In this document: one piece after another, positions 1 through 64,000 of the stretch
Layout: every line of letters begins with the position of its first letter
Position numbering within the stretch: position 1 is the stretch's first letter
Origin: Mobula birostris
Lineage: Eukaryota
NCBI RefSeq assembly: GCF_030028105.1
Contig: NC_092378.1
Span: forward strand, 107,497,731-107,561,730
Length of the DNA stretch: 64,000 nt
Reading direction: 5' to 3'
Notes under the pieces: generated by a model
The model's input: only the letters and a program-made list of their open reading frames with translations
Told to the model about the DNA's origin: nothing
Databases searched by the model: none
Program-made: the position numbers and the translations under genes

Positions 1-500
1 GCGGTACCCCACTAGTCACTGCCTGCCATTCTGAAAAGGTCCCGTTTATTCCCACTGTTTGCTTCCTGTCTGCCAACCAATTCCCTATCCACATCAATAC
101 CTTACCCCCAATACCATGTGCTTTAAGTTTGCCACTAATCTCCTGTGTGGGACCTTGTCAAAAACCTTTTGAAAATCCAAATATACCACATCCACTGGTT
201 CTCCCCTATCCACTCTACTAGTTACATCCTCAAAAATTCTATGAGATTCGTCAGACATAATTTTCCTTTCACAAATTATGTTGACTTTGTCCGACGATTT
301 CACCGCTTTCCAAATGTGCTGTTATCACATCTTTGATAACTGACTCTAGCAGTTTCCCCACCACCGATGTTAGGCTAACCAGTCTATAATTCCCTGGTTT
401 CTCTCTCCCTCCTTTTTAAAAAAGTGAGGTTACATTAGCCACCCTCCAATCCTCAGGAACTAGTCCAGAATCTAAAGAGTTTTGAAAAATTATCACTAAT
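1..500 (-). mobile_element. CR1-type LINE ORF2 (RT) fragment
   Basis: ORF 94..303 encodes VDVVYLDFQKVFDKVPHRRLV, the CR1 RT motif; degraded; runs off the window edge. Confidence 0.85.
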
Positions 501-504
501 GCAA

Positions 505-1650
505 GGACAATTTGCAGGTGAGTCAATAGTAAAGAAGTGAATTAGCATTCATTTTGGAAGGATTAGAATATAAAAACAAATATATAATGCTGTGGTTTAA
601 GTCATAGGTCAGACTGCATTTGGAATATTGTGAGCAATTTTGGATCCTGTCGCTAAAGAAGAGAGCTTAGTAGGGTCCGGACACTCACAAGAATGATCAC
701 AGGAATGAAAGGCTTAACACATGAGGACACAATTTCTATGTATATTAAGAGAAAAATGGGTAAAAGATTAGAGTATTTTCCCTTTAGTAATATATATATA
801 TACAGCTACAAGTAAAGAGTACAGTCTTAAATGTGTATTTCTCATCTGTCTTTACTGTGGCAAAGGATATGAAACCTGGTGAGTTCAGGGAGAATTTCAA
901 TGATATCCTGAAGCATATTGACATACTAAAGACGAGGCATTTGCAGTCAAAGCTCATAATACATAGTGTATATATCTCCAAGATACTGATATCAAGTTGC
1001 TCTAATCACAGAAGGAAAATTTGCTTCTTCGAGTGGACTTTCAGGAAATATATTGCAGGAAATTTTGGCATTGCATAAACCAATTGAATGTTCCAACTTC
1101 AGTGTTCCAGATGGGAAAAAGCAAATTCCTCTATCCACAATGATATTGAAAGAGATAATAATGATGATTTTGTCTCCCGGATGTTGAATTTTTAGGATTA
1201 TGTGATCGCATATTTAAAGCTGCATTGGTAATTCTGTTTTAGAAAACAAAATGCTTTTTCAGGATTAAGTTTTATGGAGAGCCAGAATTACTTTTCACAT
1301 TTTCTCTGGAGTGTAGACAGCTGAGGGGTGACCTGACAGAGGTGTATAAATCAAGAAGGGAATCAATTGGTGGTCATAGTGTTTATCTGAGTGTAGGACA
1401 GTCTATACTCAGGCACCAGAAGAGAAACTTTTTCACACAGAGTGGAGGGTATATGAAATGAGCTGGGAGAGCAAGCTGTAGAGACATGTATAATTACACT
1501 GTGGAAGAGACATTTAAACAGTTCCACTGTTCGAGATGGTTTAGATGGATATGAGCCAAATGTCAGCAAACGTGAGTGACTAGGTCAGATAGACATTAGT
1601 TGGTATGAATGAGTTTGGCTAAGTGGACTGTTCCCTTGTGGTATAAATCT
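505..1650 (+). mobile_element. Mosaic of old CR1 LINE fragments, present in both duplication units (paralogous pieces approx. 37620-37740 and 38690-39930)
   Basis: YFSSVFTVAKDM...ILKHIDI (833..) and a CR1-like 3' region (ctgaggggtgacctgacagaggtgtataa). Confidence 0.6.
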
Positions 1651-2007
1651 ATATTTTAAATGTAAAGCTTGCTTTGAGTAGTGAGTCATGATATGTTGTT
1701 GAAGTATTAAAGCCATACGGAAATATTTCGATCTCCTCTTTCAAATATTTTGCTGTTCAGAATCTGAAATTGATTCATTTACAATGGATTGAAAAGTAAC
1801 TTCCATGCAAACAAACATTTGTTGGCTCAATGCTTTTATGTCCAAGTTCTTTCTCCACTTTGTTGTTATCTAGTGATAGAGGTAAACAGACCCTGCAGTA
1901 TTGTTTGTGTTCTTGTAAGAGGACATATCTGACAGATATATTTCTGAAATTGTGTATACTTAATAAATCAGCCACAGCAAATGATAAAACATTAATAAAA
2001 ATGAATG

Positions 2008-2013
2008 TTTATT
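2008..2013 (-). promoter_or_regulatory. Polyadenylation signal (AATAAA) of alpha-globin copy 1
   Basis: AATAAA on minus strand ~100 nt after the stop; conserved in the paralogue at 40316-40321. Confidence 0.7.
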
Positions 2014-2112
2014 TAGTTTAGTTTACCAATTATGCCAAAATTTAATCAATGACAAAATGTGGAATTAAATGTTGATCTCGCTGTTGTTCACCGTAATTTG
2101 TTGATTGCATCT

Positions 2113-3067
2113 TCAACGGTACTTGGAGCTCAATTCATGTGCGAGCAACTCAAGGAATTTGTCGACAGCACAGTGAGTTGCAGGGGTGAACGCAGGCAAG
2201 TGAATGGCCAGGGTAACTGTGATACAATCAGCCAACAGCTGTAAAAGAGAAAAATTATAAAAATGAGGCAGTGTTAGCATTTGCAACTCATGATTTTACC
2301 CATCAAATGAATGTTGGTTGTTTGTACTTTGACTGCTTTGCTGTGTATCGTGTAGAAGGAAAAAGTATTCCCTGCAAAGCTGAACAAGACTACACTTCCA
2401 GATAGCTGAAGTTGCAACTAAATAAAGTTGAAAGTTCAGAGTTGCTGATCTAATCACAATATCATAGTTTGTGTAATGACAATGAGGAAGAATCTGTAAA
2501 ATTGTTACATACCTGAAAGTTGTGAGGATCCACAAGAAGTTCTTCACCATGTCTCTTGGCAAGCTTTTCCAGGTGTTTACTCAGGTTGTCCACGTTATGG
2601 GCTGCATCCGCCACAGCTTCCATGACAATGCGACCATGTCTTCTGACAGGCTGGTCAGAGGCTTTGTAGCCATTGAATTTCGGGAAGTACGTCTTAGCTT
2701 GAGGGTGGATCTCAAACAACCTTCAGAAACATGGAAAGTGAAAGCAGAAATTATGTTCCAACACAATATACACTACATCTCACTTAGGATTAAATTCCAT
2801 TATTCTCCAGACCAGCAATCACATTATTTTGGAAAAACTTCAATCCTATGCAGAGAATATATTCGTACACTTATTAATGGTCTCAATGTGCAAGGGAAAT
2901 GCAAAGAAATATTAACAATTACAAATAATAGCTGAAAATGCAATAATTATACTGTGAATCTAAGAAAATTACCTGGCTAAAGCATCGGCACCCAAAGCTT
3001 CAGCATTTGCCTTGATGTGGTGGCCCAGTTCCTCTATAACGTGTTTGTTGGGGCCAGAGAGTACCAT
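2113..3067 (-). CDS. hba: Haemoglobin alpha chain, copy 1; complement(join(2113..2238,2513..2720,2973..3067)), 142 aa
   Basis: Spliced translation MVLSGPNKHVIEELGHHIKANAEALGADALAR/LFEIHPQAKTYFPKFNGYKASDQPVRRHGRIVMEAVADAAHNVDNLSKHLEKLAKRHGEELLVDPHNFQ/LLADCITVTLAIHLPAFTPATHCAVDKFLELLAHELSSKYR*. GT-AG introns at canonical globin positions (phase 2 and 0); CD1 Phe, distal His60, proximal His89; C-terminal KYR. Confidence 0.97.
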
Positions 3068-3134
3068 TGTTGCTGAGTTTTCACTTTTTCAGATCTCTCA
3101 ATAACCAGGAGATGCCTCTGGCTTGATGAGTCCA

Positions 3135-3340
3135 TATTTATTGTAATTCACACTGAGCCACACCCTCTCCACCCCACTTTTCTCATTGGTTGACAATAGT
3201 GAATAAAGAACCAATCGTCTGTTTCACATACAACTGTTAGCAAAGATATCCTGTCCAGAAGAGCTAAACACTACCTGCACATATTTCACTTGATGCACAC
3301 GTGTAAAGGTTTAGTTTATTGCCATATAAGTTATCAGTAA
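3135..3340 (-). promoter_or_regulatory. Alpha-globin copy 1 promoter: TATA-like AATAAATA, CACCC boxes, CCAAT box, GATA site
   Basis: AATAAATA ~3135-3142; CCACACCCT 3158-3166; CCACCCC ~3169-3175; CCAAT (attgg) 3185-3189; TTATCA 3331-3336. This is the motif set typical of vertebrate globin promoters. Confidence 0.75.
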
Positions 3341-3397
3341 ATGCACATTAATAGTCATTAATCAATATGTGTTTCCAAACTAACCCTGTTATAATAA

Positions 3398-3520
3398 TCC
3401 CTTACTCACTCTTCCTTCAGTTAGTCCTGACGAAGGGTCTCGGCCTGAAACGTCGACTGCACCTCTTCCTAGAGATGCTGCCTGGCCTGCTGCGTTCACC
3501 AGCAACTTTTATGTGTGTTG
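3398..3520 (+). mobile_element. Short retroelement terminus (Penelope-like/SINE-like) with 13-bp TSD
   Basis: TSD cctgttataataa at 3385-3397 and 3521-3533; absent at the paralogous site ~41725-41745; the same terminal motif (gaagggtctcgg...agatgctgcctggcctgctg) recurs in the window. Confidence 0.8.
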
Positions 3521-4708
3521 CCTGTTATAATAAGTTTAATTTGTTTTATCGTTATTTTGATCTGGGTCTTACATTGAATTCACCCATTCAAATTCATCCT
3601 CTTCCCCCTCAGTCTTTTTATTTCACAACTTGCGCAGGGGGACATGGTTTTCCAAAATCACAAGACACCTACTGTGTACACTGCACAGAAACCGATTGGG
3701 CAAAACAAGTTATAATGTAACCATAATGGACCAGGAAGTGTGTAGGTCTGGAATCACATGTATGTTATGCATTAGCATTTGGCTGAAGTACTTGGTTACT
3801 TCCAAGTCTATGAAAGGTGTCAGAATGTGAAGACCTGAGGGTGGCCAGGACAACTTTGGAATACTGGTCTGGAATTTCATAGACATGGGTGAACTGAGCT
3901 GATGTTACAGGCAGATTTGGAGAAGGGAACTCTACTGTGAGCTCAGCTCGGGTTTAAGGTTACAGGTCTGACCAAACAGTGGAAGGCAGACTGATGAAGT
4001 CAGTGGTCTGATATCAGAGATGTGCAGCCAAAGATTTTCAGTTCTTCCCGAAGCTCAGTTGGAGCAAAGTTCTATTCACTCATTGCCAGACATCAAATAG
4101 CTAGTGTGACTGAACAAAAGCAGTGGAAGAATCAATGGAGCTACAAAGAAATATAATATTGTGTGTTATTGTACCTATTCTGCATTTAAATTTTCCATGT
4201 TTTCTGAAGGTAGGCTGATAGGTAAATTCCAGTCCCAGTGTGGTTGAGTTTGAAGGCGGTTTTATTGATCACCAACATCTCACAGTGCGGAAGGAGCTGT
4301 GTAAAAAGACAGTACCTCTCAGTGTTCTCATGAAAGATGGATTCAAATGTTGATTAAAATTCCTTCAACTTGTAAAAGTGCTTCTGACAAATGAATGAAT
4401 AAATATACAAGCAATTATATAAAGACCTACCATATGTTGAAGATTAATTGCGTAACAACACAATAATAAGTAAACAGTAAGTAAGTACTGAGATCTCATA
4501 GCTAGAAATAAAGTGGTAAACCTAATCAGGTGGGACATAACAGAACCTAATGCGTTTTTGAAGTCACTGAGAAATATTTAGAACAGGTTATTTGAAGAAA
4601 TCTATTTTTTTTAAATCTTTTCATATTTAATTGAAATATTTTTGTGATTGGCCTGAATTAAATCTGAAATTGTGTGTAATAGTGATCTAACAATATCTAC
4701 TGAATATA

Positions 4709-4893
4709 CAGTGCTTATAAAAAGTATTCACACCCCCCCCCACCCCCAGAATTCTTCATGTTTCATTGTTTTACAATATTGAATCACAGTGGATTTAATC
4801 TGGCTTTTTTTGACACTGATCAACAGAAAATGACTCTTCCATGTCAAAATGAAAGAAGATCATGACAAAGTGATCTAAATTAATTACAAACAC
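4709..4893 (+). mobile_element. Tc1/mariner transposon left-end fragment
   Basis: TA|CAGTGCTTATAAAAAGTATTCAC, a typical Tc1 TIR start. Confidence 0.65.
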
Positions 4894-5470
4894 AAAGGCT
4901 TTAGACATTGGTGAGAGGGCGCTAGGAGTATTGTGAGCAGTTTTGAGCCCCTTATCTAAGAAATGATATGCTGGCATTGGAGAGGGTCCAGAGGAGTTTC
5001 ATGAGAATGATTCCAGGAATGAAAGAGTTAATGTATGGGGAGCGTGTGATGGCTCTAGGCCTGTACTCACTGGAGTTTAAAAGAATGGGGGGGTATATCA
5101 TTGAAAACCTATTCAATATTGAAAGGTCTATGTAGAGTGAATGTAGAAAGTATGTATCTTATAGTGGGTGAGTCACAATCCAGGGGTCACAGACTGTGCA
5201 TATACAAACATCCATTAAGAACAGAAATGAAGAGGAATTTCTTTAGTCAGAAGGTGCTGAATTTATGGAATTCACCGCTAGAAATGGTTGTGGAGGCCAA
5301 GTCATTCAGTACATTTAAAACAGTGGTTGATGGGCTCATCGTTAGTCATGGCATCAAAGGTTATGGGGAGAGGTCATGATAATGGGGTTGAGGAGGATAA
5401 TAGATCAGCCACGGTGGAATGGCAGAGTAGTGTCTTTGATCCGAATGGCCTAATTCTCCTCCTAGAATAA
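4894..5470 (+). mobile_element. CR1 LINE 3' end fragment
   Basis: ORF 5101 RTEMKRNFFSQKVLNLWNS = CR1 ORF2 C-terminus, followed by 3' UTR. Confidence 0.8.
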
Positions 5471-5870
5471 TGGACCATTCAGAAATCTGATGGTGAAGGA
5501 CAAGAAGCTATTTCTGAATCATTCAGTGTGGTCTTCAGGCTCTTGTACATCCTCCCTGGTGACTGTACTGATATGAGTGCATGTCCCAGTTGGTGAGAGT
5601 CCTCAGTGATGGATGCCATCTTCTTGAGGCATTGCTTCTTGACGATGTCCATGATGGTGAGGACTATTGTGGCAGTAATGAGGCTGTCAGAGTCAGTGAC
5701 ACTCTGCAGCCTTTTGCATTTTTCCACATTGGAGCCACTGTACCAAGCTATGATACAACCAGTCAGAAAGCTCTCCACCATCCAACTGTAGAAGTTCGTA
5801 AGAATATTTAGTGGCATTCCAAATCTCTTCAAACTCCAAAGTACAACTGTTGGTGTTCCCTCTTCATGAC
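5471..5870 (-). mobile_element. Rex1/Babar LINE 3' fragment
   Basis: ORF 5479..5832 ILTNFYSWMVESFLTGCIIAWYSG, the Rex1/Babar C-terminal motif. Confidence 0.75.
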
Positions 5871-5879
5871 TCTTTGTGG

Positions 5880-6260
5880 CCTTCTTTTTATTCTTAATTT
5901 CTCCCTGCTCCCTCTTCTATTCCCCATTATGGCCTCTTCCCTCTAATCCTCACCTGCCTATCACCTCCCTCTGGTGCTGTCTTTCTTCCCTTTCTCTCTT
6001 CTCACTTATCTGATTCCTTCCTCTTCAGCCCTTTATATTTTCCACCCAGCTGACTCCACCAATCACCTTCTAGCTTGTCCTCCTTCCCACCCCCTACCTT
6101 TCATTCTGGCATCTTCTCCCTTCCTTTCCAGTCTTGCTGAAGGCTCTTGGCCCAAATTGTTGACTGTTTATTCATTTCCATAGATGCTGCCTGATCTGCT
6201 AAGTTCCTGCAGCATTTTGTGTGTGTTGCTCTGGATTTCCTGCATCTGCGGAATCTCTTA
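5880..6260 (+). mobile_element. Penelope-like element 3' terminal fragment
   Basis: Pyrimidine-rich tract plus agatgctgcctga...agcattttgtgtgtgttgc terminus; tract resembles 11380-11600. Confidence 0.6.
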
Positions 6261-6914
6261 TGCTTATATATTATTTAGCTGTCTATCTAAACAACCATCT
6301 ATCTATCTATATATCTGCAGTTTTTACAATCAGAAGTAGAGCAGTTGTCAAACTAAGCCATGGTGCATCCAAATAGGATTGATAAAAATTGATCAGGACA
6401 AGTCCATTTTTTAACCCCTGAGGAAGTAGTGGTGAGCTTTCTCGGCCATGATGGACGAGGACAAGATATAAGAAAGACAAAAAAAAAACTATTCAACATT
6501 TACTTTATTAGTCTGATGCATCACAGCTTGGTTTGCAACTGGTCTGACCAAGACCGCTAAAAATTACTGAGAACTGAGATGGCAGCCCAGTCCTTCATGG
6601 AAACCAGCCTCCTCTCTGTGGACTCTGTTCACACTGCTCCCGAAGTCTTAGGAAAGCAGTCAACATCATCAAAAACCCCACTCCACCTCAGTCATTCAAT
6701 CGTTCAGAATGATTTATTTGGATGGCATGCAAAAGAAAGTTCTCTGTTACCTCAGTATATGTCACAATAATAAATCAATTACAAACTACACATTAAATGC
6801 TGATGCAAAAAAAAACTTACTGGAGGAAAAATATAATCCACAATGTAGGTAACTTCAGAAATAATGTCCATAAAGGAAATATTGCAACTGGAAAAGAATC
6901 TTAAATACAATAAC

Positions 6915-7520
6915 TCAGCTGGTAGAGCTGCAGCACAACAGCTTCAATGACCCAGGTTCAATCCTGACCTCTAGTCCTGGTGCGTGGCCAAGTGGTTAAT
7001 GCGCCCATCTAGTGATCTGAAGGTGGCTAGTTCGAGCCTTGGCTGAGGCAGCGTGTGTGTCCTTGAACAAGGCACTTAACCACACATTGCTCTGCGACGA
7101 CACTGGTTCCAAACTGTATGGGTCCTAATGCCCTTCCCTTGGACAACATCGGTGTCGTGGAGAGGGAAGACTTGCAGCATGGGTAACTGCCGGCCTTCCA
7201 TACAACCTTGCCCAGGCCTGCGCCCTGGGAACCTTCCAAGGTGCAAATCCATGGTCTCATGAGACTAACGGATGCCTAAAAAGTACTGACTCTGTGGAGT
7301 ATAGACACTTTCCCTGTGACCACATGGGGTTCTTCCAGGTGCCATAGTTTCTTCCCACATTCCAAAGGCATGCAGGTAGGTTAATGGGCTACTGTAAATT
7401 GCCCTTAGTTCAGCTCTGTGGTAGACTTGATGGAAATGTGGAGAGAATAGGGTTAATCATAAAATTAAACTAGTTTGGAATACATTGATGGGAAAATTAA
7501 TCTAGATGGGAACTAGCATG
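6915..7520 (+). mobile_element. HE1/V-SINE-like tRNA SINE interrupted by a second SINE
   Basis: ggtagagctg...ccaggttcaatcctgacc head; body resumes at ~7282 (tgtggag...ttccctgtgacc...ttcttcccacattccaaag...tgtaaattgccc). Confidence 0.6.
6979..7281 (+). mobile_element. tRNA-derived SINE (MetaSINE-like core) nested in the V-SINE
   Basis: A box tggccaagtgg, B box agttcgagcc, core gtgtccttgaacaaggcacttaac, short A tail; imperfect TSD agt(c/a)ctg at 6973-6979 / 7282-7288. Confidence 0.7.
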
Positions 7521-8805
7521 GATTTGAAGGGGAAACTGTTGCTTTTCTGTGTCTTAAGGAAATATGGAATATACTTACATACTTTAAAGGATCGCTGTTT
7601 CTAGACATTTCTTTATAGCAATACAGCAAAAGGGTGGGTGAAAATAGTTATTGAAAAGAAGTTTGAAACAAATGAATTCTTGTGAAATTTTCAAAGGACC
7701 ATAATTGAAGACTCCAAAAGGGCAGAAGAAGGAAAAGTGAGGGAAAGTGGAGACTGATCTGTGGACGTTATGTTTATTTAACAATTATGTCTTACAGTGC
7801 CAGGAAGAATGTGGCCAGTTGGATTTACTGTGGATCAAGATTGAAAGTGAATTTTGAAATGATCACAAGTTACAGAGGGACAGAGATTTTCAAGTAGAAG
7901 TCACAAATAAATTTACAATTTTATATCAAAAGACTAGTTCTTTCTTTTCTACTTTCAAACATAAAGGTATTAAACCAGTGCATCAGAGTGAAGAAGACTT
8001 GTGTGTCCTCTGCACTAACGATTTAAACACAAACAAGAGAAAATCCACAGATGTTGAAAATCCAAGCAACACACACAAAATGCTGGGGGAAGTTAGGCAG
8101 CATCTATGGAAAAGAGTACAGGCAACATTTCAGGCTAAGACCCCTCAATTTAAATATTTAGCAAACATTTAGGATTTTTCAATGTATAGTCCACAACATA
8201 TGACTTTTCACCCTCTTACTGCCCTCCTTATCTGAGCATAAAGTCATTCTGCTAAGACCAGTAGGTAAACATGTGTCCAGTGATCATTATGTTAGGAGGT
8301 TTATGTTCATTCATGGAATCACAGAGTAATGCAAAACTGGAAAATGCAGTTTACAGCACAAACCCTGTAACATGGAACAGTACTGCACTGGATCAAGCCC
8401 CTGGTCCATGATGCTGTGCTGAATTAATTAATATAATGACTCTAATTAAAATAAACGCGCTGTCCTCACATTGTCCACATACATTGATTCCCTGCAGCTT
8501 GTCCCAAAGTAACTGTACCAAGGGAAAGCAAAATATTGCAGTCACTGTTAGTCTGAAATAAAAAAAAACAAAGTGTTGGAGTTACTCAACAGAGTAGGCA
8601 GGCAGCACATGAGCAGAGAAAATATATCAACAACCTCTCATTAAAACTGGAAAAGTGGGAAAACAAGCATGTTTCAAGTTTCAGACAGTGGAGAGACCAG
8701 AGGGAAAATCTGAGCAAGGGTAGAGATGATTTCTCTCCAGTATTCACAAATGTTGAGTTTCCTGGAGGAATATAGGCAGGGAGATGAATGAAGATAATAG
8801 AGAGA

Positions 8806-9054
8806 CAAATACTTCCTTTGAATTACCTATAGTTTTCACACACCTCCATCTCCGCACCTACACTCTAGACACCCAAAATGAACGTTCATCGACATTGTCT
8901 GGTTTCCAATCAACTCCAGTCTACAGCCACTGGAAAAATATTGTTTAGGCTGCATTTAAGATATTCAATCTATCATCCACGTTCATGTGTGAAGATACTT
9001 AGCTGGTGAAATTAATATTTGTGCTGCATCTTAACTCCAGAATACACACTAACA
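8806..9054 (-). mobile_element. Partial copy of the solo LTR at 11744-12181
   Basis: Aligns to ~11940-12181 and ends at the same atacactaaca|gtatat junction. Confidence 0.6.
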
Positions 9055-10280
9055 GTATATAATAAGGCAAAGACAACCATAAGTTAACATAAACTTACAT
9101 TTACATGAATTATGGATAACTTATAATGTACAAAAATAAGCAATACTAGTGCAAGATTGAGAGGGAAAAACAACAGATCATTGTACCAATGATATCTCTT
9201 CCCTAATCTCAAATGTATAATTACAGCAGTCCTCTTTGACTTCCTTTTCAAATATATGTTGTACCATTGTACAATAAATAGGTGGGACTGAATTGTCAGC
9301 TGCTCTGTATTTCTCTTAAATATTTCCATTTTTTTCACAGTAACTCATTTTATTCTGCGGTAAAAATGCAGAAATACACAATTATGCAACTCACTCTCTT
9401 TGTACAATTTCTTTAATATTGAAGCCGTATCTATTATTTCACTTAGTGAAGAATATAATTATATAATATGTAACTTCAACTGTTAAATTATTTTAAATTA
9501 ATCAAAGTTAAAGTCTTGAAAAAAATTGGTTTAACAATGCAAAACTATGAAAACCTAAAGTGATATGATAGCTGATTTAGATGCCTGATGTTATTAATGC
9601 GTACAGTTATTTGGGCTACAGCTTGTTAAAACATTTGGAAAAGCTGTTTTGGATCATCAGAAGTTCAGAGATGGGGGGTGTAGGTTATCTAAAGACATCA
9701 GCTTCTTGGTGTGCCTAGATATCTGCAGGTTTGAAAAGTGTGGGACAAAGGATAATTACACTTATTTTTCTGAGAACAACCTTTCCAAGATAAAGAACTT
9801 AGCTTAAGATCACAGACAACAACTTTCTCTCCATATAGGGCTACCTTCCAATATTTGGTACAATGATTCAGCGAGTTGCAGCTGAACATTTGTTGATGAG
9901 TCATTGGAACTTTATCAGCTTTGTAGTGATGAATATACACAATAGAGCATTTCCAGAACATCCAAGTGCACGAGTCTTGCAGATGTATGATTGCGTACAA
10001 CTCAGTTATCAACCGTTGGTCCAGCCTTAAGCAAGTTGAACACCGTGTTTCAATATTTACAAACTGATTATTTCAGCAGACTTCAATGGTAGAACTCAGG
10101 ACATTTACTGTGCATATATTTTTACCAGTATATATCTAGCTTAAAGTGAAGCTAGAGAGAATAAAGCAAATATAACTGAATTTGATGCTAGATTATTTCT
10201 TAAAGTTGCAGGTGTTGGAGTATTCTTCAGTCTCCCATGTTTCCTCACGTGGACAGGTGAGAGATCCAAAGAACAGACAC
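9055..10280. promoter_or_regulatory. Conserved non-coding block, copy A (candidate erythroid enhancer)
   Basis: Also at ~15135-16150 and ~46010-47190. Motifs: TTATCT 9685, AGATAA 9788, CAGCTG 9879, TGAGTCA 9897-9903, TTATCA 9912 and 10006. Confidence 0.5.
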
Positions 10281-10284
10281 TAAA

Positions 10285-11600: not shown

Positions 11601-11743
11601 AGAAGGGATCACATTGCAAGGACTGAAAGGATTGGAAAAAGTGCAAGTAAACCTGGAAAGAGAAATTAAAGATCAAGGTCAAATGCAAGTTACACAGGGT
11701 GTAAATACCTTGAAAATTAGTTTCTTGTTACAACTGTGTACCT

Positions 11744-12181: not shown

Positions 12182-12272
12182 GTATATAACAGGGCAAAGA
12201 CAAACATAAGTTAATACAAACACAAATTGTACATAACTTACATGTGCAAAATATAGAACAAAATAAGTAATA

Positions 12273-13183: not shown

Positions 13184-13292
13184 ACTAGTGCAAGATTGAG
13201 ACAAGAAAGATTAGTTCACTGTACCAATGCTATCTCTTTCCTAATCTTAAATATATAATTACAACAGTCCTTTTTGACTTTCTTTTCAAATA

Positions 13293-52630: not shown

Positions 52631-52634
52631 GATT

Positions 52635-53060: not shown

Positions 53061-53107
53061 TATGTATACTCTCCATGATACTTTTTAAGGTAGCTACTGT
53101 ATCTAAT

Positions 53108-53481
53108 ATAGTGGCCACTTGGCATATTTTTGTGGTCTCCGCTGCTTTTGCCTAACCACCTCAAGGTTCCACAAGTAGTGCACTCAAAAATGGTCTTCTG
53201 CCGATCAATCTTGTAGCATGTGGTTATTTGAATTACTGTCGCCTTCCTGTCAGCTTGAGACAGTCTGGCCATTCTCCACTGACCTCTCCCATTAAGAAGG
53301 TGTTTTTGCCAACAGAACTACTGCTTAGTGGACGTTTTTGTTTCGTGCACCACGCTCACACTCGTGACCAGCGTCGAAACTCTTGACCATATCTGCATGT
53401 TTTTATGCATTGAGTTGCTGAAACATGACTGGCTGATTAGCAGGTGTACAGGTGTGCCTAATCAAGTGGGCACTGAGAGTA
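53108..53481 (-). mobile_element. Tc1-like non-autonomous transposon
   Basis: ARLSQADRKATVIQIT (Tc1 HTH remnant); ends agtggccact ... aagtgggcactgagagTA. Confidence 0.65.
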
Positions 53482-54152
53482 GGCCACTGTTAACTACCTG
53501 TACAGTGACATTCATTTTCTTACTGGCATTCATAGTAGAACAAATAAATGCAATCAAATCAATGAAAAACCACCCACAAACAAAGTCTGACAACCAAAGG
53601 GCAAAAGAAGACAAACTGAGCAAATACAATAAATGAATAAATAGTATTGAGAATTTGAGTCCTTGAAAGTGAGTACACAGGTTGTGGAATCGGTTCAGTG
53701 TTGAGATGAGTAAAGTTATCCAAATTGATTCAGGAGTCTGATGGATCAAGAATAATAACTGTTCATGAACTTGGTGATGTGTGACTTGAGGATCCTGTAC
53801 ATCCTTCCTGGTAACAGTGAGAAGCCAGCATGGCCTACTGATATGAAATTCCATTATCATATTTAGTGGGTTACTGTCAATACTGAATGAAATAGCTCAG
53901 TAAAGAATTCAGTTGACCACAGTTGCTACAACACATTGGTTACCGAACACAATTATCACACCATCTCCCTAAAGACAAGGTTTTCCTGACACTTTCATCC
54001 AGATCAATAATGAGAATAATAAAGGAACATCAATTTCCATCTCAGGGCCGAAACACTGAGAGATAGTGATTCAAACTGATTCATCCACAAACATTTTGAC
54101 TTCTGAACACATTTCATCAGTTTAATAACTTTTAGCTTTAGACATTATTCTT

Positions 54153-54829
54153 TTATATATATATATATATATATATAATTTTTATTGTTTTCGAAGTGAA
54201 TACATGGGAAAATAATATCTACCCTCCCCCCTCCCCTTAACCCTCCCCCCCCGCAATATATACTCCTGCCTAAAGAGAAAAGAAAAAAAAGAACCACCTG
54301 AATATTGGAAGGTTTGCACATGCTCCATGGGATTAAAAATAAATTTTATATATATTTGTTACTTTCCCCAAGGAACCAAGATCTTTACCATCGGAGCTGT
54401 AAATAAGGGCTCCAGATATTCAAAAATGTTTCATGTTTATCTCTTAAAATCTAAAACATTACTTAGCTTCTCAACTCTCATAGTTCCCTGGGGAATCTCT
54501 TTGAACCTCACCATGTTGCTATGTGTTTCCCTCCCAATCATCCAGGCAAAAAGAAAAAAAGATAGATAAGATACAAAAAAAGAAAAAACAAAATACGCCC
54601 CCACTAATGTTGTGAATGAAAAGATGCACAACACTACTCCCCCTCCATTTTGCAGGTCGTGGCTATTACCACGCTTGCACACATGAATAACATAGCGATT
54701 GGTCAGTATTTCTTTCAGCTCCCCCGCAACAAAAAATTGTATATATATAAAAAAATATAATGTCATTATTCCCAGCTAGTATTCCTCAAATTTTAACCTT
54801 TCTTCCCCTCCCTCATATAATTAATAATG

Positions 54830-54862
<33 letters not shown>

Positions 54863-56163
54863 GTATTTATATTTTTATCCACCTAAAAATCCAACAGGCC
54901 TAATCCTTGATCCAGTCTTCATCTTCAACCCATCTCGCTCCCCTGGGTTTGTTCTTGTATCTGGTGAATATTCAAAGAATCTTGCACAAGCCCCTCCGCT
55001 TTCCGGTAATCATCAAAAAATCTTTTTTCTCCACCAGCCAAAAAAATCTTCAAGGTTGCAGGATAACACAATGTAAATTGATAACCATGATCCCATAGGG
55101 CTTTTTTCACTGGATTAAATTTCTTCCTTCTTTTCAAAAGTTCATAACTTATGTCAGGGTAGAAAAGAATTTTCTTCCCTTCTACCATCAGTGGCCCTTT
55201 TCTCTTCTTGGCAGCTTGGGCAGCCGCCTGTAGAATCCTTTCTTTGTCTTGAAATCTTAAGAAATTTATTAAAATTGATCATGGATATTGGTCATCTTGT
55301 GGTTTTGGTCTTACAGCTCTATGTACCCGTTCAATTTCAATTGATTGGTCTTCCTCTTTCATTTGCAAGGTTTTCGGGATCCATCTTTGAAAAATTTCTA
55401 TTGGATTATCTCCCACTATACCTTCTTTAAGACCAACAATTTTAATATTATTACGTCTACTAAAATTTTCCAACACGTCCACTTTCTCCAAGAGTCGATT
55501 TCTTTCCGTGTTCCAGACAAGCACATCATTTTCTGTTTTTTTCACTCTATCGTTAATATGCTCCATTGTTCTTTCCATCTTCTGAAGTTTCTTATCCATT
55601 TTATCTCGTTTTTTCATAGCTTTATCATAGCACATCTTCATGTCTCTAAGCTCTGTTAATTTTCTTAGTTCAGCCGTTAATTGCAATAAAGCCTCTCTTA
55701 TGTCTCTGTCGTCTCCTTTACTTCCAGTCACTTCCAGTTCTTCCTCCTCTTCTTCATCTGTATTCTCTGCGGTATCCAATTCTGACTCTGAGTCACTTTC
55801 AGTTGCAGTGGTCATCGGTTCTTGTAGTTTAAGTTGTGTCAATTTGCGCATGCGCATTTCCGGCATCTTCTTCCAAGAGACCGCTACCGCCGCCTTTGCT
55901 CGCTGTTCTTCTACGCCAGAGATAAAATGCGTCCCCTCTGAAGGAGATCCAACCTGAATCCGAGGCTCCATCGCTGCAGTAGGCCCTTTTTTCTTCCCAT
56001 CTCACGGCGACTTCACAAAAACAGACTTCTTCTGTTGCGGTTTACGAGACATATCGTAGAGTAGTCTTACGAAGTTTATAAGTAGTTTTCGGAACTTGGC
56101 TGATTTTTTACGGGAGAGCTGGATTTACACGTCTCAATCCCACGTCATCACGTGACGCTCCCC
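54153..56163 (-). mobile_element. L1-clade ORF1-only (HAL1-like / internally deleted) retroelement with 14-bp TSD
   Basis: TSD tagacattattctt 54139-54152 / 56164-56177; single ORF1 frame 56052..54925 (LENFSRRNNIKIVGLKE, EIERVHR, ILFYPDIS) with two in-frame TGA; AATAAA + (TA)n tail. Confidence 0.88.
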
Positions 56164-56959
56164 TAGACATTATTCTTAAAATGTTTTATGCATTATAAAG
56201 TTAGAACACAATCTTGATAAGCAAGTACTAAGCATTCCTTCAAAGCTGATAGTTTGTAGTAACCTGCATTAATTTTTCTGAGCAGATAATTGTGATACAA
56301 GAGTCTGCAGATGCTGGAATCTGGAAGAACAAAAAATCTGCTGGAGGAACTCAAGAGAACAAGCAGCATCTGTGGGGGAGGGAACTATTAATGTTTCAGT
56401 TGAAAACCCTGCACCAGGATTATAGTATTTTGGATACTCATTGCTTTATTTTCTGATCATATTGAGCCCTTCGAATGACATCTCCTGCTGTTAGGATTCT
56501 CCAAGGTTTGGCATTGAACTTGACCATCAACCAATAATAAGCAATACCTTTTTTCTGTCCTTCTTGAAAGCACTTTCTGAGGTAAATCAACTTGCTTGTC
56601 TGGATTGACTTCTGTCAGTGGCACATTCATCAAACATTGCATGGGGGCATGCTATTGAGAGAGGGAGACTTCTTGAATACTCTTGGGATAATTGAATTTT
56701 ACTCCCCAGTGCTGTACTGTGCTCATTCCTTCAGATCTTGTCCCATTCTCCACATGTGGCACCAAACCTCTCACCAAAAAATAGATGACAGAAACACCCT
56801 GCAGTCAAGCAGTATCTGTGCAAAAAGAAACAGAGTTAACTTTCCATGTCAAAGACCCATCATCAGAACTGGGAAAGACAGAAATGAGTGAGTCGAGGTA
56901 GTGGAGAAGGTGGAAGAAGATGATGTCTGGAACAAGGGGAATTTCTCTGATGGGGTGAA

Positions 56960-59900
56960 ATAGAACATAGAACACTGAACATCGTACAGTTCAGCACAGT
57001 AAAGGCTCTTTTACTAATGATGTTGTGTCGACCCTTTATCCGACTCTATCCTTTCCCTCCCAGACAACCCTCCATTTTTCCTTCCTTCATGTGCATATCT
57101 AACAGTTTCTGGCTCTACCACTACTCTGGCAGTGGATTTTGTGCATTTAATATTCTCTGTGTATAAACATCTGCCTCTGACTTCCCCTTAGACAGCAGGG
57201 TTCAAACACCCATCAACCTCTGTGTAAAAACACCAGCCTCTGACATCCCCTTAGACAGAAGGGTTCAAACACCCATCACTCTCTGTGTAAAAAACACCAG
57301 CCTCTGACATCCCCTTAGACAACAGGGTTCAAACACCCACCACTCTCTGTGTAAAAACACTGGCCTCTGACATCCTCTTAGACTTTCCTCTCAACACCTT
57401 AAAATTATGTCTCCTTGTAAAAGAGACGAAGAAAAAACTGTCCATGCACTCAATCTATGCCTCTTATCATCTTGTATGTCTTTATCTAGTCACCTCTCAT
57501 TCTCTTTCTTTACAAAGAGAAAGGCCATAGCTCACTCAACCTATCCTTTTAATGCTTATACTGCAAATGTGAAGGATCTACGGATGTGAACCAAAAGATC
57601 CCTCTGTTCCACTTCACTATTAAGAATCCTGCACCAACCTTGTATTCTGCCTTCAAGTTTGACATTCCAAAGTAAATTACTTCACACTTTCCCAGATTGA
57701 ACTCCATTAACCATTTCTCAGGTCAGCTCTGCATCCTATCAATGTCCTACTGTAACCTATGACAACCTTCTTCTCTATCCACAACACTGCCAAACTTCCT
57801 GTTGTGTGGAAACTTACTAACCACCCTTCTACTGACTCATCCATCATTATAAAATTCATAAAGAGAAGGGATCCTAGAAGAAATCCCTATGGGATACCAC
57901 TGGCCACTAACCTCCAGGCAGGATATGTTCCATCTACTACCAACCTCTGCTTTCTGTGGACAAGTTAATTCTGGATCCACCCAGTTAAATTTTCCTGATC
58001 CTTGACTCCTTTCTAAATGTGCCTACCATGGTGAACATTGTCAAATACCTTACCAAAGTCTATATACACCAAATCCACTTCTCTGTTCTCATAGATTTGT
58101 TTTGTAATATCCTCAAAGAATCCAATCAGAACTGTGAGGCAAGACCTATCCCTTACAAAGTCATATTGCTTATTCCTAATCAGACTATGCTTCTCTACAT
58201 GGTTGTCGATTGTGTCTCTAAGAATGCTTTCCAATATTTTACCCACCACTGATGTAAAGCTCACTGGTGTATAACTCCCAGCATTATCCCTATTACATTT
58301 GCCACCCTCTGGTACTATTCCTGTGGCGAATGAGGATGTAAACATCATTGTCAGATGTGTAACAATCTCTTCCCTCATTTCTCATAATAACTTGGGGTAT
58401 ATCCTGTCCAAGCCTGGGGACTTACCTATCCTAAAGTTTTCCAAAAGTTCTAGTGGATCCTCTTTCTTAATGTCAACATGTTTTAGTTTATCAGCTTGTC
58501 CTAAGCTGACCTCTCTTTGCTCAAGTTTTTCTTCTCGCTTGTGATTACTGAAGCAAAAGATTCGTTAAGTAGCTCCACTACCTCCTCCAACTCGGGACAT
58601 GTTTCCTCTTTTGTCCCTGATCAGTCCAGTCTTCATGTTTGTGCCTAATAGCATCATAACTCCCCCTTCACAATTTTACAATTTCATCTAAAGTCCACTC
58701 CGATCCATGTCAGAGGTTATGGTAAAGGTCAGGGAGTTGTGGTCACTGTCTTCACAATGTTCACCTGCCAAGAGATCTGTCTCCTCTCCTGGTTTAACGT
58801 CTTGTACCAGATCCAATTTTCAGATCAAGGAGCATCATATGGGGATCAACCAAGTTCACACCAAGGTGTTGTAATCTAATCATAATCAAGAGAAAATCTG
58901 CAGATGCTGGAAATCCTGCTGAAGGGTCTCAGCCCAAAACATTGATTGTAAATTTTTCCATAGAGGCTGCCTTGCCTGCTGAGTTCCTCCAGCATTTTGT
59001 GTGTGTTCCAAGAGCTGTGTTCTGTCCACACTCTAGTATGGATCAGAGTGACCTTGTCAAGCTGTTGTCATTCCACACTAGGAGCCTCAGGAAGACTCTC
59101 TGTATTTTTTGGCAAAGAAAGATCTCCAACCAAGCCCAACTCCTGCAGTGTCATCATGAAGAAACACTGGTGATGGACTGGGCATGTGATGAGAAGAAAG
59201 GCCATCTCCATCATCAAGATGGCATGTTATTGGACCCCTGAAGAGTGGAGGAAATACGGGAGACCAAAGATAAATTGGTGCTGTGATGTAGAGGCTGAAA
59301 TGAGGCCCTGAATCACACCTGGAGCTCAACAGAGAAGTTGGCCAAAGATAGACAGAGATGGAGGATCTTCATTACTGCCCCCTAAATGCCAGCAACGTAA
59401 TGAGCAGTAAGTTAAGTACCTGATCCAGTAAGGGCTTTCCTCTAGTTGACCTTACTCCATACCGAGTCAGGAATCCTTCCTGAGCATACCTAACAAATTC
59501 TGCCTCATCTAAACGTTTTGCTCTACGGAGATGTCAATCAATATAAGGGACGCTGAAGCCACTGATGACAACAAAGATGCTGTACTTACATTTTTTCAAA
59601 ATCTGCCACCTGATCTGATCCACAGTGTCTCTGTTGCTATGAGGGGAGTCCATAGAATACCACCAATAGTGTAGTTGTTTCCTTACTGTTTTCACTTCCA
59701 ACCACAGACTCAGAAGTTGATTTCTTCAGGAGATCTGCATTGTTATACTATCCCTGATTAGCAATGCCATTCCTCCCTCCCTGTCTCTTTTGAAACATCT
59801 AAACCCCAGAACATCCTCCAACCATTCCTGCTCTTGTGACAGCCAATTGTCATGCTATAAGTGAAGCACAACCATATCCAGTGAGGATCCATGTAATGGA

Positions 59901-60110
59901 ACTGTATCCAGTTAGGATCAGTGATGTAACCACTATAAGTTCATCACCCTTGTTCCTGTTAATATCATTACAACAGATACCTTTCAACCCATCCAACAAT
60001 CCTGCAAATATGCCCATTCCACCACCTATCCTGCCTCGCAGTCTCTCTACAGGCTGCATTTACCTTTACAACAATGGCCCCATTCTCTGACCTATCACTC
60101 TGGTTCCCAT
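56960..60110 (-). mobile_element. Degraded CR1 LINE with nested RTE/Penelope fragments (~58810-59415)
   Basis: ORF 58013 VSFTSVVGKILESILRD...VDLVYIDFGKVFDNV; atagaac tail at ~56960. Confidence 0.75.
57153..57384. repeat. ~63-bp tandem repeat, ~3.5 copies, inside the CR1 3' region
   Basis: cctctgacatccccttagac...gggttcaaacaccc...ctctgtgtaaaaacaccag starting at 57174, 57237, 57301, 57364. Confidence 0.85.
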
Positions 60111-60410
60111 CTGAATCAGAATCAGGTTTAATATCGCTGACATATGTCGTGAAATTTGTTGTTTTGTGGCAGTAATAATAACAAAAAATATAATTAAAAG
60201 AGGCATACATAAAACATAAATTAAGTTATTAGTGAAAAAAGAAGGAAAAATTGTGAGGTAGTGTTCATGTTTGTGAGTCATTGTCCATTCAGAAATCAGA
60301 AGGGGCGGTGGGGAAGAAATTGTTCCTGAAAACTTGAGTGTGTGTCTTCAGGCTCCTGTACCTTCTCCTTGATGGCAGCAAAGAGAAGAGGGCATGTCCT
60401 AGGTAATGGA
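60110..60410 (-). mobile_element. Rex1/Babar 3' end
   Basis: (gattct)n tail; gggaagaaattgttcctg...cttcaggctcctgtaccttctcc. Confidence 0.7.
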
Positions 60411-61720
60411 GGTATATATTATGAGACAGTATAAATATGATGAACTAAAATGGCTTCCTATTTCCTCCTGGAAGTATTTATGATAAAAAAAGGTGTAAGG
60501 GGATTTCGATTTTTATGTTACTGCTGAGGGCTACAAAGGTAAATATGAGGAACATGTTTTTGAGCTTGCCTGCAGGAAATACAGAGAAAGTCAATGGTTG
60601 ATATCAGTTTTTATGGAATCCTGATATACAACCAGCCTTGGTTGTACATGGTCCACTTGGATCCAAATATTGTATAAGCCTCTCACTTTAGCCCAGTCCT
60701 TATCATCAGCCAGAATGTCCACCAAACCCCACTTTCCAGATTATTGCCCCACCGTCTTTGCCATCTCTGTGAAGAGTTACCAAATGGTTTGCAGGTTTGT
60801 GAGGTTTGATTATAAGACAGGTAATATTTTGCAATACTAATTTAATCTTTATATATACTTCTTATAGTAATTTATAGTACATTTTATGTATTGCACTGTA
60901 CTGCTGCTACGTAACAACAAATTTCACGACATGTGCAGTGATAATAAACTTAATTCTGATTCTGATTCTGAAATTCTAAAGCCCTAATGCACTACAAATG
61001 GGAGAAGTGGCTGATATTTGCTGCAGCTGAACAGAATGATTTGCAGGCGAAAATATTAAAAACCACTATAAAAGTGAAAATCAAAGTGATGAACTTAAAC
61101 CTGTGAGGCTGCAGCCCTACTTGCTGTGAATCTCAGACAGAAACTCATGGGAAAACATTACTCTTTGAGTGTATTGTACCTGCTGTGACTGTGATCCAAG
61201 TCACCGGAGAGGCACTCAAGCTGATGATATCAAAGTCATTACTCAGTCCAATAAACAGCATTCTCCTGGAGAAACACACACAAAATTCTGGAGGAGCTCA
61301 GCAGGTCAGGCAGCATCTTTGGAAAATAATAAACAGTCAACATTTTGGGTCCAGAATATTCAGCACAAACATGAAGCAAGTAAATGGTCATTATTGATCA
61401 GCAATCTGCAGAGGCAGCTGATGATAATGCTGCCCATCGTGATTCACTTTCTTCTCCTCTGCAAATGAGAGGAAGATGTGCTTGTGAACATACTAGCTGG
61501 GTAATTTGTTAACATCTTGGTGGGTATATACAAAAAGCTGTGAAATATGGGTTTAGAACTAGGGTCAGAGTAAAAATAAAGTAAGGGTATCATGATGCAA
61601 AAGTTAAATAATAACCATTATAGGTAGAGATTACTGGCCAAGTGTAATTGTAGAAGCATAACATAGAGCAGTGTGCAAGAGATGAAGTGACTGGAAAATG
61701 ACTTAAAACACTTTCTTAGT

Positions 61721-61863
61721 ACTAATCCGACTACCTGTAATCTGGTTCCTTCGATAATCAGGCACTGATTATGCTTAATGTGATCCTTCTGTAATTCAGC
61801 ATTTTTACTAATCTGGCACTCCTCGGGTCCCAATGGTACCGGATTAGTGAAGGTCGACCTGTA
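61721..61863. mobile_element. MITE-like relic (Tc1/pogo type)
   Basis: actaatccg ... cggattagtgaaggtcgacctg|TA inverted ends; absent at the paralogous site ~23450. Confidence 0.5.
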
Positions 61864-62399
61864 TTGCCCTTGTGTCTTTGGTATTGATTTTGATTTAAAA
61901 TTTATCCTACCAGTGCTTCACAATGAACTCTACAATTTTCAAATACCTCTCCTCCTCTCCACACCATCCATTATTATCTCCAGAACTGCCCGTTGTGATA
62001 CACCATGACCCCACCAACCTTCCTACAAGTTTGAAATGACAGCTGATAATGATGAGAGGCCATGACAACTTCTCCTATAAGATGAATCATCATGAACTTA
62101 ATCTAAACCTCTGATGCCCAACCAGTGGTAGTGCAACCTGTGAGTGTACTTCAATGACACAGACAGCACAGACATTGACTAGACACTTCCATCACAATAA
62201 TGAGGTAGGTCTCAAGAGATTACAGATGCTAGAATCTGCAGGCAAAGAACTGAGCTGGAGGTGGAACTCAGTGTGTCAAGCAGTGTTTGAAGAAGGAAAC
62301 GGACAGTATGCATTTCTATCAAGACCATTATAAAGAAGTTTTTAGCCTAGCGTCTTGGTCTCAGAAATGTTTTGTTTATGAGATGCAGGATATCAGCTC

Positions 62400-64000
62400 C
62401 ATCAGTGGGTTAAGATAAAGTCAGATGTGTAAGTGTTACAGTGGAGTAAAGGGAATTACAGAGACATGAGAGAGAAGCTGACCAAAGTAGATTACAAGGG
62501 GACACTAACAGGGATGATGGCTGGAGATTCTGTGGGCAATTTAGAAGGCACAGGACAGATATATCCCAAATATGCAGAGTATTCTAAAAGGAGGATGAGG
62601 CAGCCACGTTCAACAAGAGAAGTCAAAGTCCAAATGAAAGGAATAGAGAGAGCACGTAATATAACAAGTTGTATTAAGTTGGAGAATTGGGAAACTTAAA
62701 AACTAACAGAAGGGAAGTGCAAAAAAAATATAAATAGTGAAAAACAGAAATATGAAGGTAAGTAGTTACTAATATAACAGAGGATACCACAGATTTTTAA
62801 GATATATAATAAGTAAAAGAGAGTGGATATTGGACTGCTGGAGAAGAATGCTGGAGAGTTTGTAATTGGGGCTAAGAAATGGCTGAAGAACTTAATAAGA
62901 TTTTTATGTCAGTCTTAAGCGTGGATTGAAACTAGTGAAAAAGAATCTCGGGGTTGTATGTAGTGACATGTATGTACTCTGATAATAAATTTTACTTTGA
63001 ACTTTGAACTTTTTCATTGTATGCCAGAAATATGAGTGCTGAGGGGAGAAGTGAGTGTAGTTCCTATTACTAAGGAGAAGGTGCTTGGGAATTTGAAAGA
63101 TCTGAAGGTAGATATGCCACCTGGACCAGATGAGCTTCCCCCAGTTCTGTAAGAGATAGATGAAGAGGTTATGGAGGCATTAGTAATTATCTTTCAAAAT
63201 TCTATCAGTCCCTCGAGTTGAACTCTGCTTTTTGTGTGTTTCCTCCTAGCTGTCAGCCTATGGTTTTGTATTGCCATGTGCTCCTGTCTCTGCTCCTGCT
63301 CTACTCCGGTCCCTGTATTACTGAGTACTTTGTGTCTCATCTGTTTCTCATTATTACCTGTATTGCTGCCACCTGTGTCCCATTGTGCTTCACCTATCAT
63401 CTGCCTTTGTTTATTGCTCAGTGTATTTCAGTCCTGTGTTTTCATCTGTTTGTTGTGAGATTGTGCCAGTGAATTTTCCTGATCCTTTCCAGCATTCGCA
63501 TCTGTCTGTCTGAATATTGAGTCTGCCTGTTTCCTGATTCCGGTTTTTGGATTTCTCTGGATGTTTTGATCTCTTCCTGAACTTTGATGCTGACTTTGTT
63601 TGAACCTTGGGATTTGTTACTCAATTAATACCACTGTGTGCACAGTACTGGATTGTGGTTAGATCCCTACTCCAGTGTCCTGGGAGATTTACTATATTCT
63701 GGAATTGTTCTAGAGAATTTGAAATACAAATTTCACTCCACACTTTAAGAAGGGAAGCAGAAGAAAGGAGATTATAGTCCAGTTATTCTGACCTCAGTAA
63801 TTGGAAAGCTGTTGGAGTACATTAATAAGGTTAAGGTCCCAGGGTACTTGAAGGTGAATGATAAAATTCACCAGAGTCATCATAGTTTTCTTAAGGTGAA
63901 ATCTTGCCAGACAAATCCGTTGGAATACTTTATGGAAATAATTGGCAACATGGATAAAGGACAGTCAGTAGATGTTGTTTATTTAGTTTTTCAGAAGGCC
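62400..64000 (+). mobile_element. Old CR1 LINE (paralogue of 24500-26730)
   Basis: LQWSKGNYRDMREKL; ends in gatgttgtttatttagtttttcagaaggcc. Confidence 0.75.
63205..63686 (+). mobile_element. Probable Gypsy-type solo LTR inserted in CR1
   Basis: T/C-rich ~480-bp insert absent from the paralogous site ~26425; termini degenerate. Confidence 0.45.

What the first reader, a model, noticed from the sequence alone, without database searches (positions are those of the whole stretch)
500..64000. ~37-38 kb tandem duplication of a whole [beta+alpha] globin unit
Seen: approx. 500-26730 recurs colinearly at approx. 37620-64000. Offsets are 38,303 at the alpha ATGs, 38,282 at 22259/60541 and ~37,270 at the terminal CR1. 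Shared old TE relics mark the unit; many younger TEs are unit-specific. Inference: the cluster grew by duplicating a same-strand beta-alpha cassette with its flanking DNA, which predicts another beta gene ~4-6 kb past the right edge and possibly one just left of the window.
Basis: partly seen in the sequence, partly recalled or inferred. Interest (0 to 1): 0.7.

Follow-up and report, generated by a model that had tools for sequence, protein, structure and literature searches.

The report
Repeated alpha-beta globin cassettes in rays
This stretch of a ray genome holds two old copies of a 33-43 kb block that carries one alpha and one beta haemoglobin gene, part of an eight-block array that likely grew by uneven chromosome crossovers; this way of growing is already described for sharks and rays, so the finding is real but mostly ordinary.

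Summary
Confirmed, with corrections. The ~38-kb diagonal is real (18 colinear blocks, 70-89% identity, a third of each copy). Both predicted flanking beta genes exist, 5.8-7.1 kb left and 2.6-3.9 kb right of the window. The window is part of a ray haemoglobin cluster with eight alpha->beta units of 33-43 kb, four per strand. The two window copies are not sisters (14-21% apart). Unit 2 is closest to unit 3 (1-7%), then to unit 7 on the opposite strand. The newest unit has its junction inside beta intron 2: beta3 is beta2-like in front (243:17 sites) and beta4-like behind (7:148), an anti-Lepore-type crossover. The scan noted that hybrid before, on the DNA next door. Walt et al. 2026 already call the colinear alpha-beta pair the duplicating unit in cartilaginous fishes, so the kind is known. 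The side lead is more surprising: ten 99%-identical orphan alpha genes on contig C17, derived from this cluster. They carry tyrosine at the proximal-histidine site, are spliced in one RNA run, and have a Mobula hypostoma homologue with the same tyrosine at only 74% identity.

The parts
2113..3067 (-). alpha-globin gene of unit 1 (exons 3067-2973, 2720-2513, 2238-2113), intact, 142 aa
   Evidence: GT-AG, open frame; PF00042; CCAAT -122, AATAAAT -75, AATAAA downstream
31178..32437 (-). beta-globin gene of unit 2 (exons 32437-32346, 32068-31861, 31306-31178), intact, 142 aa
   Evidence: best hit 1cg5_B, E 1e-25; TATAA -77
40418..41370 (-). alpha-globin gene of unit 2 (exons 41370-41276, 41025-40818, 40543-40418), intact, 142 aa
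   Evidence: best hit 1cg5_A, E 1e-26; His E7, His F8
1..31177 (-). window part of unit 1 (beta-to-alpha spacer, alpha1, start of the alpha-to-beta spacer); the unit runs on past the left edge to beta1, the predicted left-hand beta (intact, 5.8-7.1 kb beyond the edge, G000:C11 about 107,490,594-107,491,943); 38.3 kb in all
31178..64000 (-). window part of unit 2 (beta2, alpha-to-beta spacer, alpha2, most of the beta-to-alpha spacer); runs on 2.6 kb past the right edge, 35.4 kb in all; next comes beta3, the predicted right-hand beta (L021:2625-3859), a beta2/beta4 hybrid with the switch late in intron 2
502..26729 (.). first copy of the colinear chain (18 blocks, 8.6 kb aligned)
37628..64000 (.). 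second copy of the colinear chain (18 blocks, 8.5 kb aligned)
26241..26729 (+). shared old LINE reverse-transcriptase relic; partner at 63,019-64,000
24543..25733 (-). young LINE insertion in a gap of the chain, unit 1 only (94% like outside copies)
48032..51793 (-). young repeat-rich insertion including a LINE in a gap of the chain, absent at this place from unit 1

Best explanation
The window shows two old, non-sister copies of a 33-43 kb alpha->beta haemoglobin cassette in an eight-unit array, which likely grew step by step by misaligned recombination between neighbouring units. Shown: eight units with colinear spacers, four on each strand; the newest pair (units 2 and 3) is 1-7% apart along its whole length and joins inside beta intron 2, which leaves a hybrid beta gene. 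Inferred: that event was an unequal crossover between two beta genes, which must copy the alpha gene between them and so keeps alpha and beta numbers equal. Also inferred: an older inverted copying or flipping of a multi-unit block made the two arms, and later exchange between the arms made unit 1 a mosaic. After copying, the spacers drifted and took up new transposons, while purifying selection kept the proteins nearly the same.
For: Flanking betas found where predicted. The six beta-to-alpha spacers chain with each other over 7.4-16 kb, against 0.4-3.0 kb for those six versus four control stretches. Units 2/3 are 89-96% identical in 11 blocks through spacer, alpha, spacer and beta. Beta3 informative sites are 243:17 beta2-like before +910 and 7:148 after (Fisher p about 1e-82). 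The trees switch accordingly: (b2,b3) 100/99 for the 5' part; (b3,b4) 100/100 and (b2,b7) 100/99 for the 3' part; (a2,a3) and (a1,a6) 100/100. Cross-arm closeness: unit 2 to unit 7 is 6-17% by segment; the unit-1 spacer to the unit-8 spacer is 8-15%, against 15-21% to unit 2. alpha1/alpha2: pS 11.6%, introns 12% and 15%, pN 1.2%. LUC7-family and iRhom genes flank the cluster, as published (PMC13023373).
Against: No junction could be mapped for the event that separated units 1 and 2, so its mechanism is by analogy only. Most deeper branches of the unit trees are unresolved. Divergence between units 2 and 3 is uneven (0/420 differences in the beta promoter, 7% in the distal spacer), so conversion has overwritten part of the record and could also mislead the older relationships. 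No record laid bridges the beta3 junction. Distances rest on BLAST chains projected on one reference unit.
Confidence: 0.85

Rival explanations
1. Units 1 and 2 are direct sisters from one tandem duplication of about 38 kb, and their closer matches to other units come from later gene conversion.
For: Adjacent, same strand, colinear over the whole unit including beta; conversion-like tracts do occur in this array (beta2/beta7 promoter 13 of 417 differences against 52 of 364 just upstream).
Against: Units 1 and 2 are 14-21% apart in every non-coding segment, as far as most unit pairs; each has a closer partner over many kilobases, including shared insertions; neither the alpha nor the beta trees pair them.
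Confidence: 0.08
2. The repeats are an assembly artefact: two haplotypes joined head to tail.
For: A haplotype mis-join would also leave a hybrid gene at the seam, so it cannot be fully excluded for the young pair 2/3; no contig bridges the beta3 junction.
Against: For the window pair: 14-21% divergence and kilobase insertions private to each copy. For pair 2/3: 3-7% spacer divergence and insertions of 3-5.5 kb, more than alleles usually differ (my knowledge; heterozygosity was not measured here). Run X1 holds pieces that match beta2, beta3's flank, beta4 and beta7 separately, but it may be the source sample.
Confidence: 0.04
3. Alpha and beta genes were duplicated singly, and the colinear flanks are chance chains of abundant transposon relics.
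For: About 80% of the aligned bases also match repeats elsewhere (inflated because the comparison set held other globin genes).
Against: Control chains of equal length give 0.3-2.3 kb among the four controls, against 8.8 kb for the window pair; order and orientation are kept across eight units; strict alpha/beta alternation.
Confidence: 0.02

Closest known systems
Haemoglobin clusters of cartilaginous fishes (Walt et al. 2026, PMC13023373; parts 1-4 of 8 of the main text read, plus a term search of the whole text; supplements not read)
   Same: Colinear alpha-beta pair as the basic unit; growth by duplicating the unit; anti-parallel arms; Luc7l on one side and Rhbdf1 on the other; large alpha/beta counts in Mobula (20 alpha, 9 beta in giant manta, with a 10-gene alpha expansion).
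   Different: The paper stresses anti-parallel duplication and argues from gene order and trees. Here same-strand tandem copies, spacer-level homology, a mapped junction and mosaic units are shown. 'unequal', 'tyrosine' and 'proximal' occur 0 times in its main text, and 'chimeric' only in two reference titles.
Anti-Lepore HBB/HBD fusion genes of laurasiatherian mammals (Gaudry et al. 2014, PMC4041002; abstract and outline read)
   Same: Unequal crossover between neighbouring beta-type genes gives a duplication with a hybrid gene at the seam.
   Different: Here an alpha gene and about 33 kb of spacer lie between the recombining betas, so a whole alpha+beta cassette is gained; both parent genes stay intact.
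Stingray haemoglobin, PDB 1CG5/1CG8
   Same: Best solved-structure match for exon 2 of both chains (E 1e-26 and 1e-25).
   Different: Another species (that this entry is a stingray, Dasyatis akajei, is recalled, not from a call); only exon 2 was compared.
Human Hb M Iwate, alpha87(F8) His->Tyr (PMC4109735; passages read)
   Same: Same substitution as in the ten orphan alpha genes on C17 (side lead).
   Different: A rare human disease allele, whereas here it is in all 10 of 10 copies and in a second species' homologue.

Membership tests
Gnathostome alpha/beta haemoglobin genes | Globin domain with three exons and two GT-AG introns | tested here: met
Gnathostome alpha/beta haemoglobin genes | Phe CD1, distal His E7, proximal His F8 | tested here: met
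   alpha2 by position; alpha1 and beta2 read from the translations and the alignments to 1cg5
Gnathostome alpha/beta haemoglobin genes | Expression of these particular paralogues in red cells | tested here: inconclusive
   RNA-run contigs skip beta intron 2 at about the predicted place but do not tell paralogues or tissue
Cartilaginous-fish Hb cluster (Walt 2026) | Colinear alpha-beta pair as repeated unit, with anti-parallel arms | tested here: met
Cartilaginous-fish Hb cluster (Walt 2026) | Flanked by Luc7l and Rhbdf1/Aanat2 | tested here: met
   LUC7 family at C11:106.998 Mb and iRhom at 108.34 Mb; which LUC7 or iRhom paralogue was not tested; Aanat2, GbY and Nprl3 were not searched
Anti-Lepore-type fusion duplication | Hybrid gene with one parent's 5' part and the other's 3' part, both parents present on either side | tested here: met
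   (beta3 between beta4 and beta2)
Anti-Lepore-type fusion duplication | DNA between the parents present twice | tested here: met
   (units 2 and 3, 26.3 kb aligned at 89-96%)
Anti-Lepore-type fusion duplication | Junction confirmed by independent long reads | not testable with these tools
   only short contigs were on offer; none bridged the junction
Single tandem duplication of units 1 and 2 | The two copies are each other's nearest relatives | tested here: not met
   RT relic shown through a PF00078-bearing frame; no transposon library to assign the clade
Oxygen-carrying alpha chain (C17 orphan genes) | Proximal His F8 | tested here: not met
   Tyr89 in 10 of 10 copies and in P0002

The most novel reading that the evidence does not exclude
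The alpha half of this cassette escaped to another chromosome and became a new kind of globin in devil rays: a tyrosine-ligated, non-oxygen-carrying alpha chain, amplified to ten near-identical copies in palindrome arms of about 50 kb, transcribed, and evolving several times faster in its exons than in its introns and flanks. It would be a natural, selected Hb M Iwate-like protein, for example a haem scavenger or redox protein.
Probability: 0.3. Interest if true: 0.7.

Novelty: already known. Interest (0 to 1): 0.35.

Why it matters
The cassette itself is published in kind. What this adds is a mechanism at base level: because alpha and beta alternate on one strand, a crossover between two betas must copy an alpha too. 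That would keep chain numbers balanced and may explain why ray clusters grow in pairs. The array also gives a graded series of copies for studying conversion between inverted arms. The C17 orphan alphas would matter more: if the Tyr-F8 protein is functional, it accounts for a ten-gene alpha surplus like the one reported for giant manta without any extra oxygen carrier, and it is directly testable by expression and spectroscopy.

Tried and rejected
(75-kb windows centred on alpha genes) was spoiled by overlap between neighbours and was replaced by non-overlapping spacers. Gene conversion as the reason alpha1 and alpha2 proteins are alike: not needed, since pS and introns (12-15%) are near the flank level. 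A repeat-mediated unit end at the LINE near 26.7 kb: rejected, homology continues. Read check of the beta3 junction: inconclusive, contigs too short. Contig depths in run X1 (42-53, 70-78 and 139 for pieces shared by one, two and three assembled copies; 371 for the ten C17 copies) fit equal depth per assembled copy but also fit a haplotype reading, and the tool says they are no copy number, so they are not used as evidence. No RNA holder was listed by the run search; no inference drawn. A mobile-element engine for the C17 palindromes: no intact transposase or virus-like frame was recognised among frames of 150-200 aa or more, judged by eye from their first 70-80 residues; only the 581-aa frame was scanned (LINE RT). 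Literature searches for natural proximal-tyrosine globins (1 unrelated paper), Mobula globins and skate gene orientation gave listings only, with nothing on this beyond PMC13023373; they cover open-access papers only. The scan's notes held nothing for the C17 protein.
Full report
Observation. A self-BLAST of the window gives a colinear + strand chain from 502/37,628 to 26,729/64,000 at 70-89% identity. The 18 blocks that I picked cover 33% and 32% of the two copies. The chain is not chance: the two beta-to-alpha spacers chain over 8.8 kb in 19 blocks, against 0.5-2.3 kb for the unit-1 spacer versus four control stretches of 30 kb. Sequence at least 88% like an outside copy is 161 of 8,574 and 63 of 8,510 aligned bases, but 2,255 of 17,657 and 2,532 of 17,871 gap bases, so younger repeats are mostly unit-specific. 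The block near 26.5/63.8 kb is a LINE reverse-transcriptase relic. Its CR1 label was not tested, and it is not an end of the unit.

Genes. The window has three intact minus-strand globin genes with GT-AG introns: alpha1 (3067-2113), beta2 (32437-31178) and alpha2 (41370-40418). The exon-2 peptides of alpha2 and beta2 match 1cg5 A and B best among solved structures. A related protein in this genome is identical to one that NCBI names Mobula birostris alpha-like, so the animal is most likely a manta or devil ray.

Context. The window is G000:C11:107,497,731-107,561,730. In 664 kb around it, both predicted betas are present: beta1 at -5,787 to -7,136 and beta3 at 67,859-66,625 in extended window coordinates. 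The core array has four alpha->beta units on the minus strand (units 1-4) and four on the plus strand (units 5-8), diverging from a 33-kb centre. More distant genes lie at both ends (aL0, bL0, bL1, aL1 on the left; aR, bR on the right). Broken genes: alpha5 (ACG start, AA acceptor), bL1 (stop in exon 1) and bR (TG acceptor, stop near the end); alpha8 (only exon 1 found) and beta8 (exon-2 match breaks off at residue 45). Alpha-to-alpha spacings are 38.3, 39.8 and 34.7 kb on the minus arm; units cut at beta stops are 33-43 kb, apart from units 4 and 5, which include the centre. A LUC7-family gene lies about 0.3 Mb to the left and an iRhom gene about 0.42 Mb to the right, as Walt et al. describe.

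History. All six beta-to-alpha spacers chain with each other (7.4-16 kb); the alpha-to-beta spacers of units 1-7 chain over 4.5-7.9 kb and that of unit 8 over 1.8-2.6 kb, against 0.1-0.4 kb for the rightmost pair. Units 2 and 3 are the youngest pair: 26.3 kb aligned at 89-96%, and 1-7% apart by segment. Their seam is in beta3. Of the sites that tell beta2 from beta4, beta3 sides with beta2 at 243 of 260 up to +910 and with beta4 at 148 of 155 after it. Trees of the 5' and 3' parts switch partners with full support. This is what an unequal crossover in intron 2 between beta2 and beta4 would leave, with the alpha gene and both spacers between them copied (inference). The window pair is older: 14-21% apart in spacers and 9% over the alpha gene. 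Unit 2 is next closest to unit 7 on the other strand. Unit 1's distal spacer is closest to unit 8's (7-17% by 800-bp window), and its alpha gene pairs with alpha6. The centre, read towards alpha5, is itself a beta-to-alpha spacer lacking its first 4 kb, and a further spacer remnant follows beta8. These point to an inverted copying or flipping of a multi-unit block and later exchange between arms (inference). Beta2 and beta7 differ at 13 of 417 promoter sites against 52 of 364 just upstream, while betas 1, 4, 5 and 6 differ from beta2 at 65-94 of about 420, which looks like conversion between arms. alpha1 versus alpha2 has pS 11.6%, introns 12% and 15%, pN 1.2%: purifying selection is enough to explain the protein likeness.

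Against this reading. The junction of the event that split units 1 and 2 was not found. Deeper branches are unresolved. No contig bridges the beta3 seam, and run X1, whose pieces match separate paralogues of this genome, may be the source sample. A haplotype mis-join is ruled out for the window pair by divergence but only made unlikely for pair 2/3.

Known biology. Walt et al. [quoted passage not shown] Fusion duplications by unequal crossover are known from mammalian beta-globins (PMC4041002, abstract). The finding is therefore known in kind. The same-strand copies, the mapped seam and the mosaic units are details I did not find in the parts of that paper I read.

Side lead. The alpha search also hit ten places on C17. 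All ten genes have open frames and GT-AG introns, and two copies compared against the rest are 99.2-99.95% alike over 9-10 kb. Eight of the ten sit as convergent pairs 51-59 kb apart. The one pair read in full is a palindrome with arms of about 49 kb at 97.5-99.4%, and upstream stretches of the three other pairs sampled match it at 93-99.9% over 11-30 kb. The flanks are 84-85% like the cluster's leftmost alpha over about 13 kb of cluster DNA, ending some 15 kb short of its beta; no beta-type gene was matched on C17. The protein keeps Phe CD1 and His E7 but has Tyr at F8, Asn at C7 and Tyr-Ile at G4-G5 (helix labels by position, from my knowledge). His F8->Tyr in alpha is the Hb M Iwate change (PMC4109735, passage). 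A homologue named Mobula hypostoma alpha-like also has Tyr F8 and is full length at 105 of 142 identity (only 16 candidates were scored). One contig of RNA-labelled run X21 joins across both introns, and its five exon-2 differences are those of the commoner copy type; X22 showed no such contig. In run X5 (another organism) at least 18 of 208 exon-2 bases differ against 9 of 453 in the 5' flank (Fisher p 1.6e-4; the table was cut, so 18 is a floor). Among the ten copies, 9 variable sites fall in 429 exon bases, 0 in 502 intron bases and 61 in 6,469 flank bases (p 0.019). This fits selection on a changed protein, but relaxed constraint with conversion is not excluded: pN is about equal to pS against aL0 (24% and 23%). 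Walt et al. report a 10-gene alpha expansion in giant manta; 'tyrosine' and 'proximal' do not occur in their main text, and the listings showed nothing on it.

Verdict. Observation confirmed; interpretation partly supported; already known in kind; interest 0.35, lifted a little by the mapped seam and the C17 lead.

Noticed in passing
G000:C17:269,188-29,958,670 (L061-L070): Ten intact orphan alpha-globin genes, about 99% identical, with Tyr at the proximal His site; spliced in one RNA-labelled run; a Mobula hypostoma homologue shares the Tyr; exons diverge faster than introns and flanks.
   Followed up: partly
G000:C17:236,981-353,272: Palindrome with arms of about 49 kb at 97.5-99.4% identity, each arm holding one orphan alpha; like stretches at 1.8, 7.7 and 29.9 Mb. 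Resembles ampliconic palindromes of sex chromosomes (recalled); whether C17 is one was not tested.
   Followed up: partly
L021:2625-3859: Hybrid beta gene just past the right edge, beta2-like front and beta4-like tail, switch late in intron 2.
   Followed up: yes
window 32,437-32,857 and 31,307-31,590: Beta2 shares near-identical promoter and late intron 2 tracts with beta7 on the opposite strand, about 215 kb away; looks like conversion between inverted arms.
   Followed up: partly
G000:C11:107,301,720-107,302,633 (aL0): Leftmost alpha gene has pN about 18-22% against the core alphas while its introns differ by 9-17%: accelerated protein change; it keeps His F8.
   Followed up: partly
G000:C11:107,646,793 (alpha5); 107,773,443 and 107,778,514 (alpha8, beta8); 107,386,911 (bL1); 107,913,049 (bR): Likely pseudogenes: lost start and acceptor, lone exon 1, broken exon 2, in-frame stops.
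   Followed up: partly
window 12,275-15,126: Unit-1-specific element bounded by 912-bp inverted arms at 89% identity.
   Followed up: no
window 9,250-11,068 and 15,132-19,253: Internal direct repeat within unit 1 (1,048 bp at 85% and 818 bp at 77%); may be two copies of one transposon.
   Followed up: no
window 21,666-21,903 and 57,154-57,383: Minisatellites with periods 29 and 63, each in a gap of the chain.
   Followed up: no
G000:C11:107,613,603-107,646,792 and 107,780,921 onward: The centre between the two arms is a truncated beta-to-alpha spacer, and another spacer remnant follows beta8, suggesting a lost ninth unit.
   Followed up: partly
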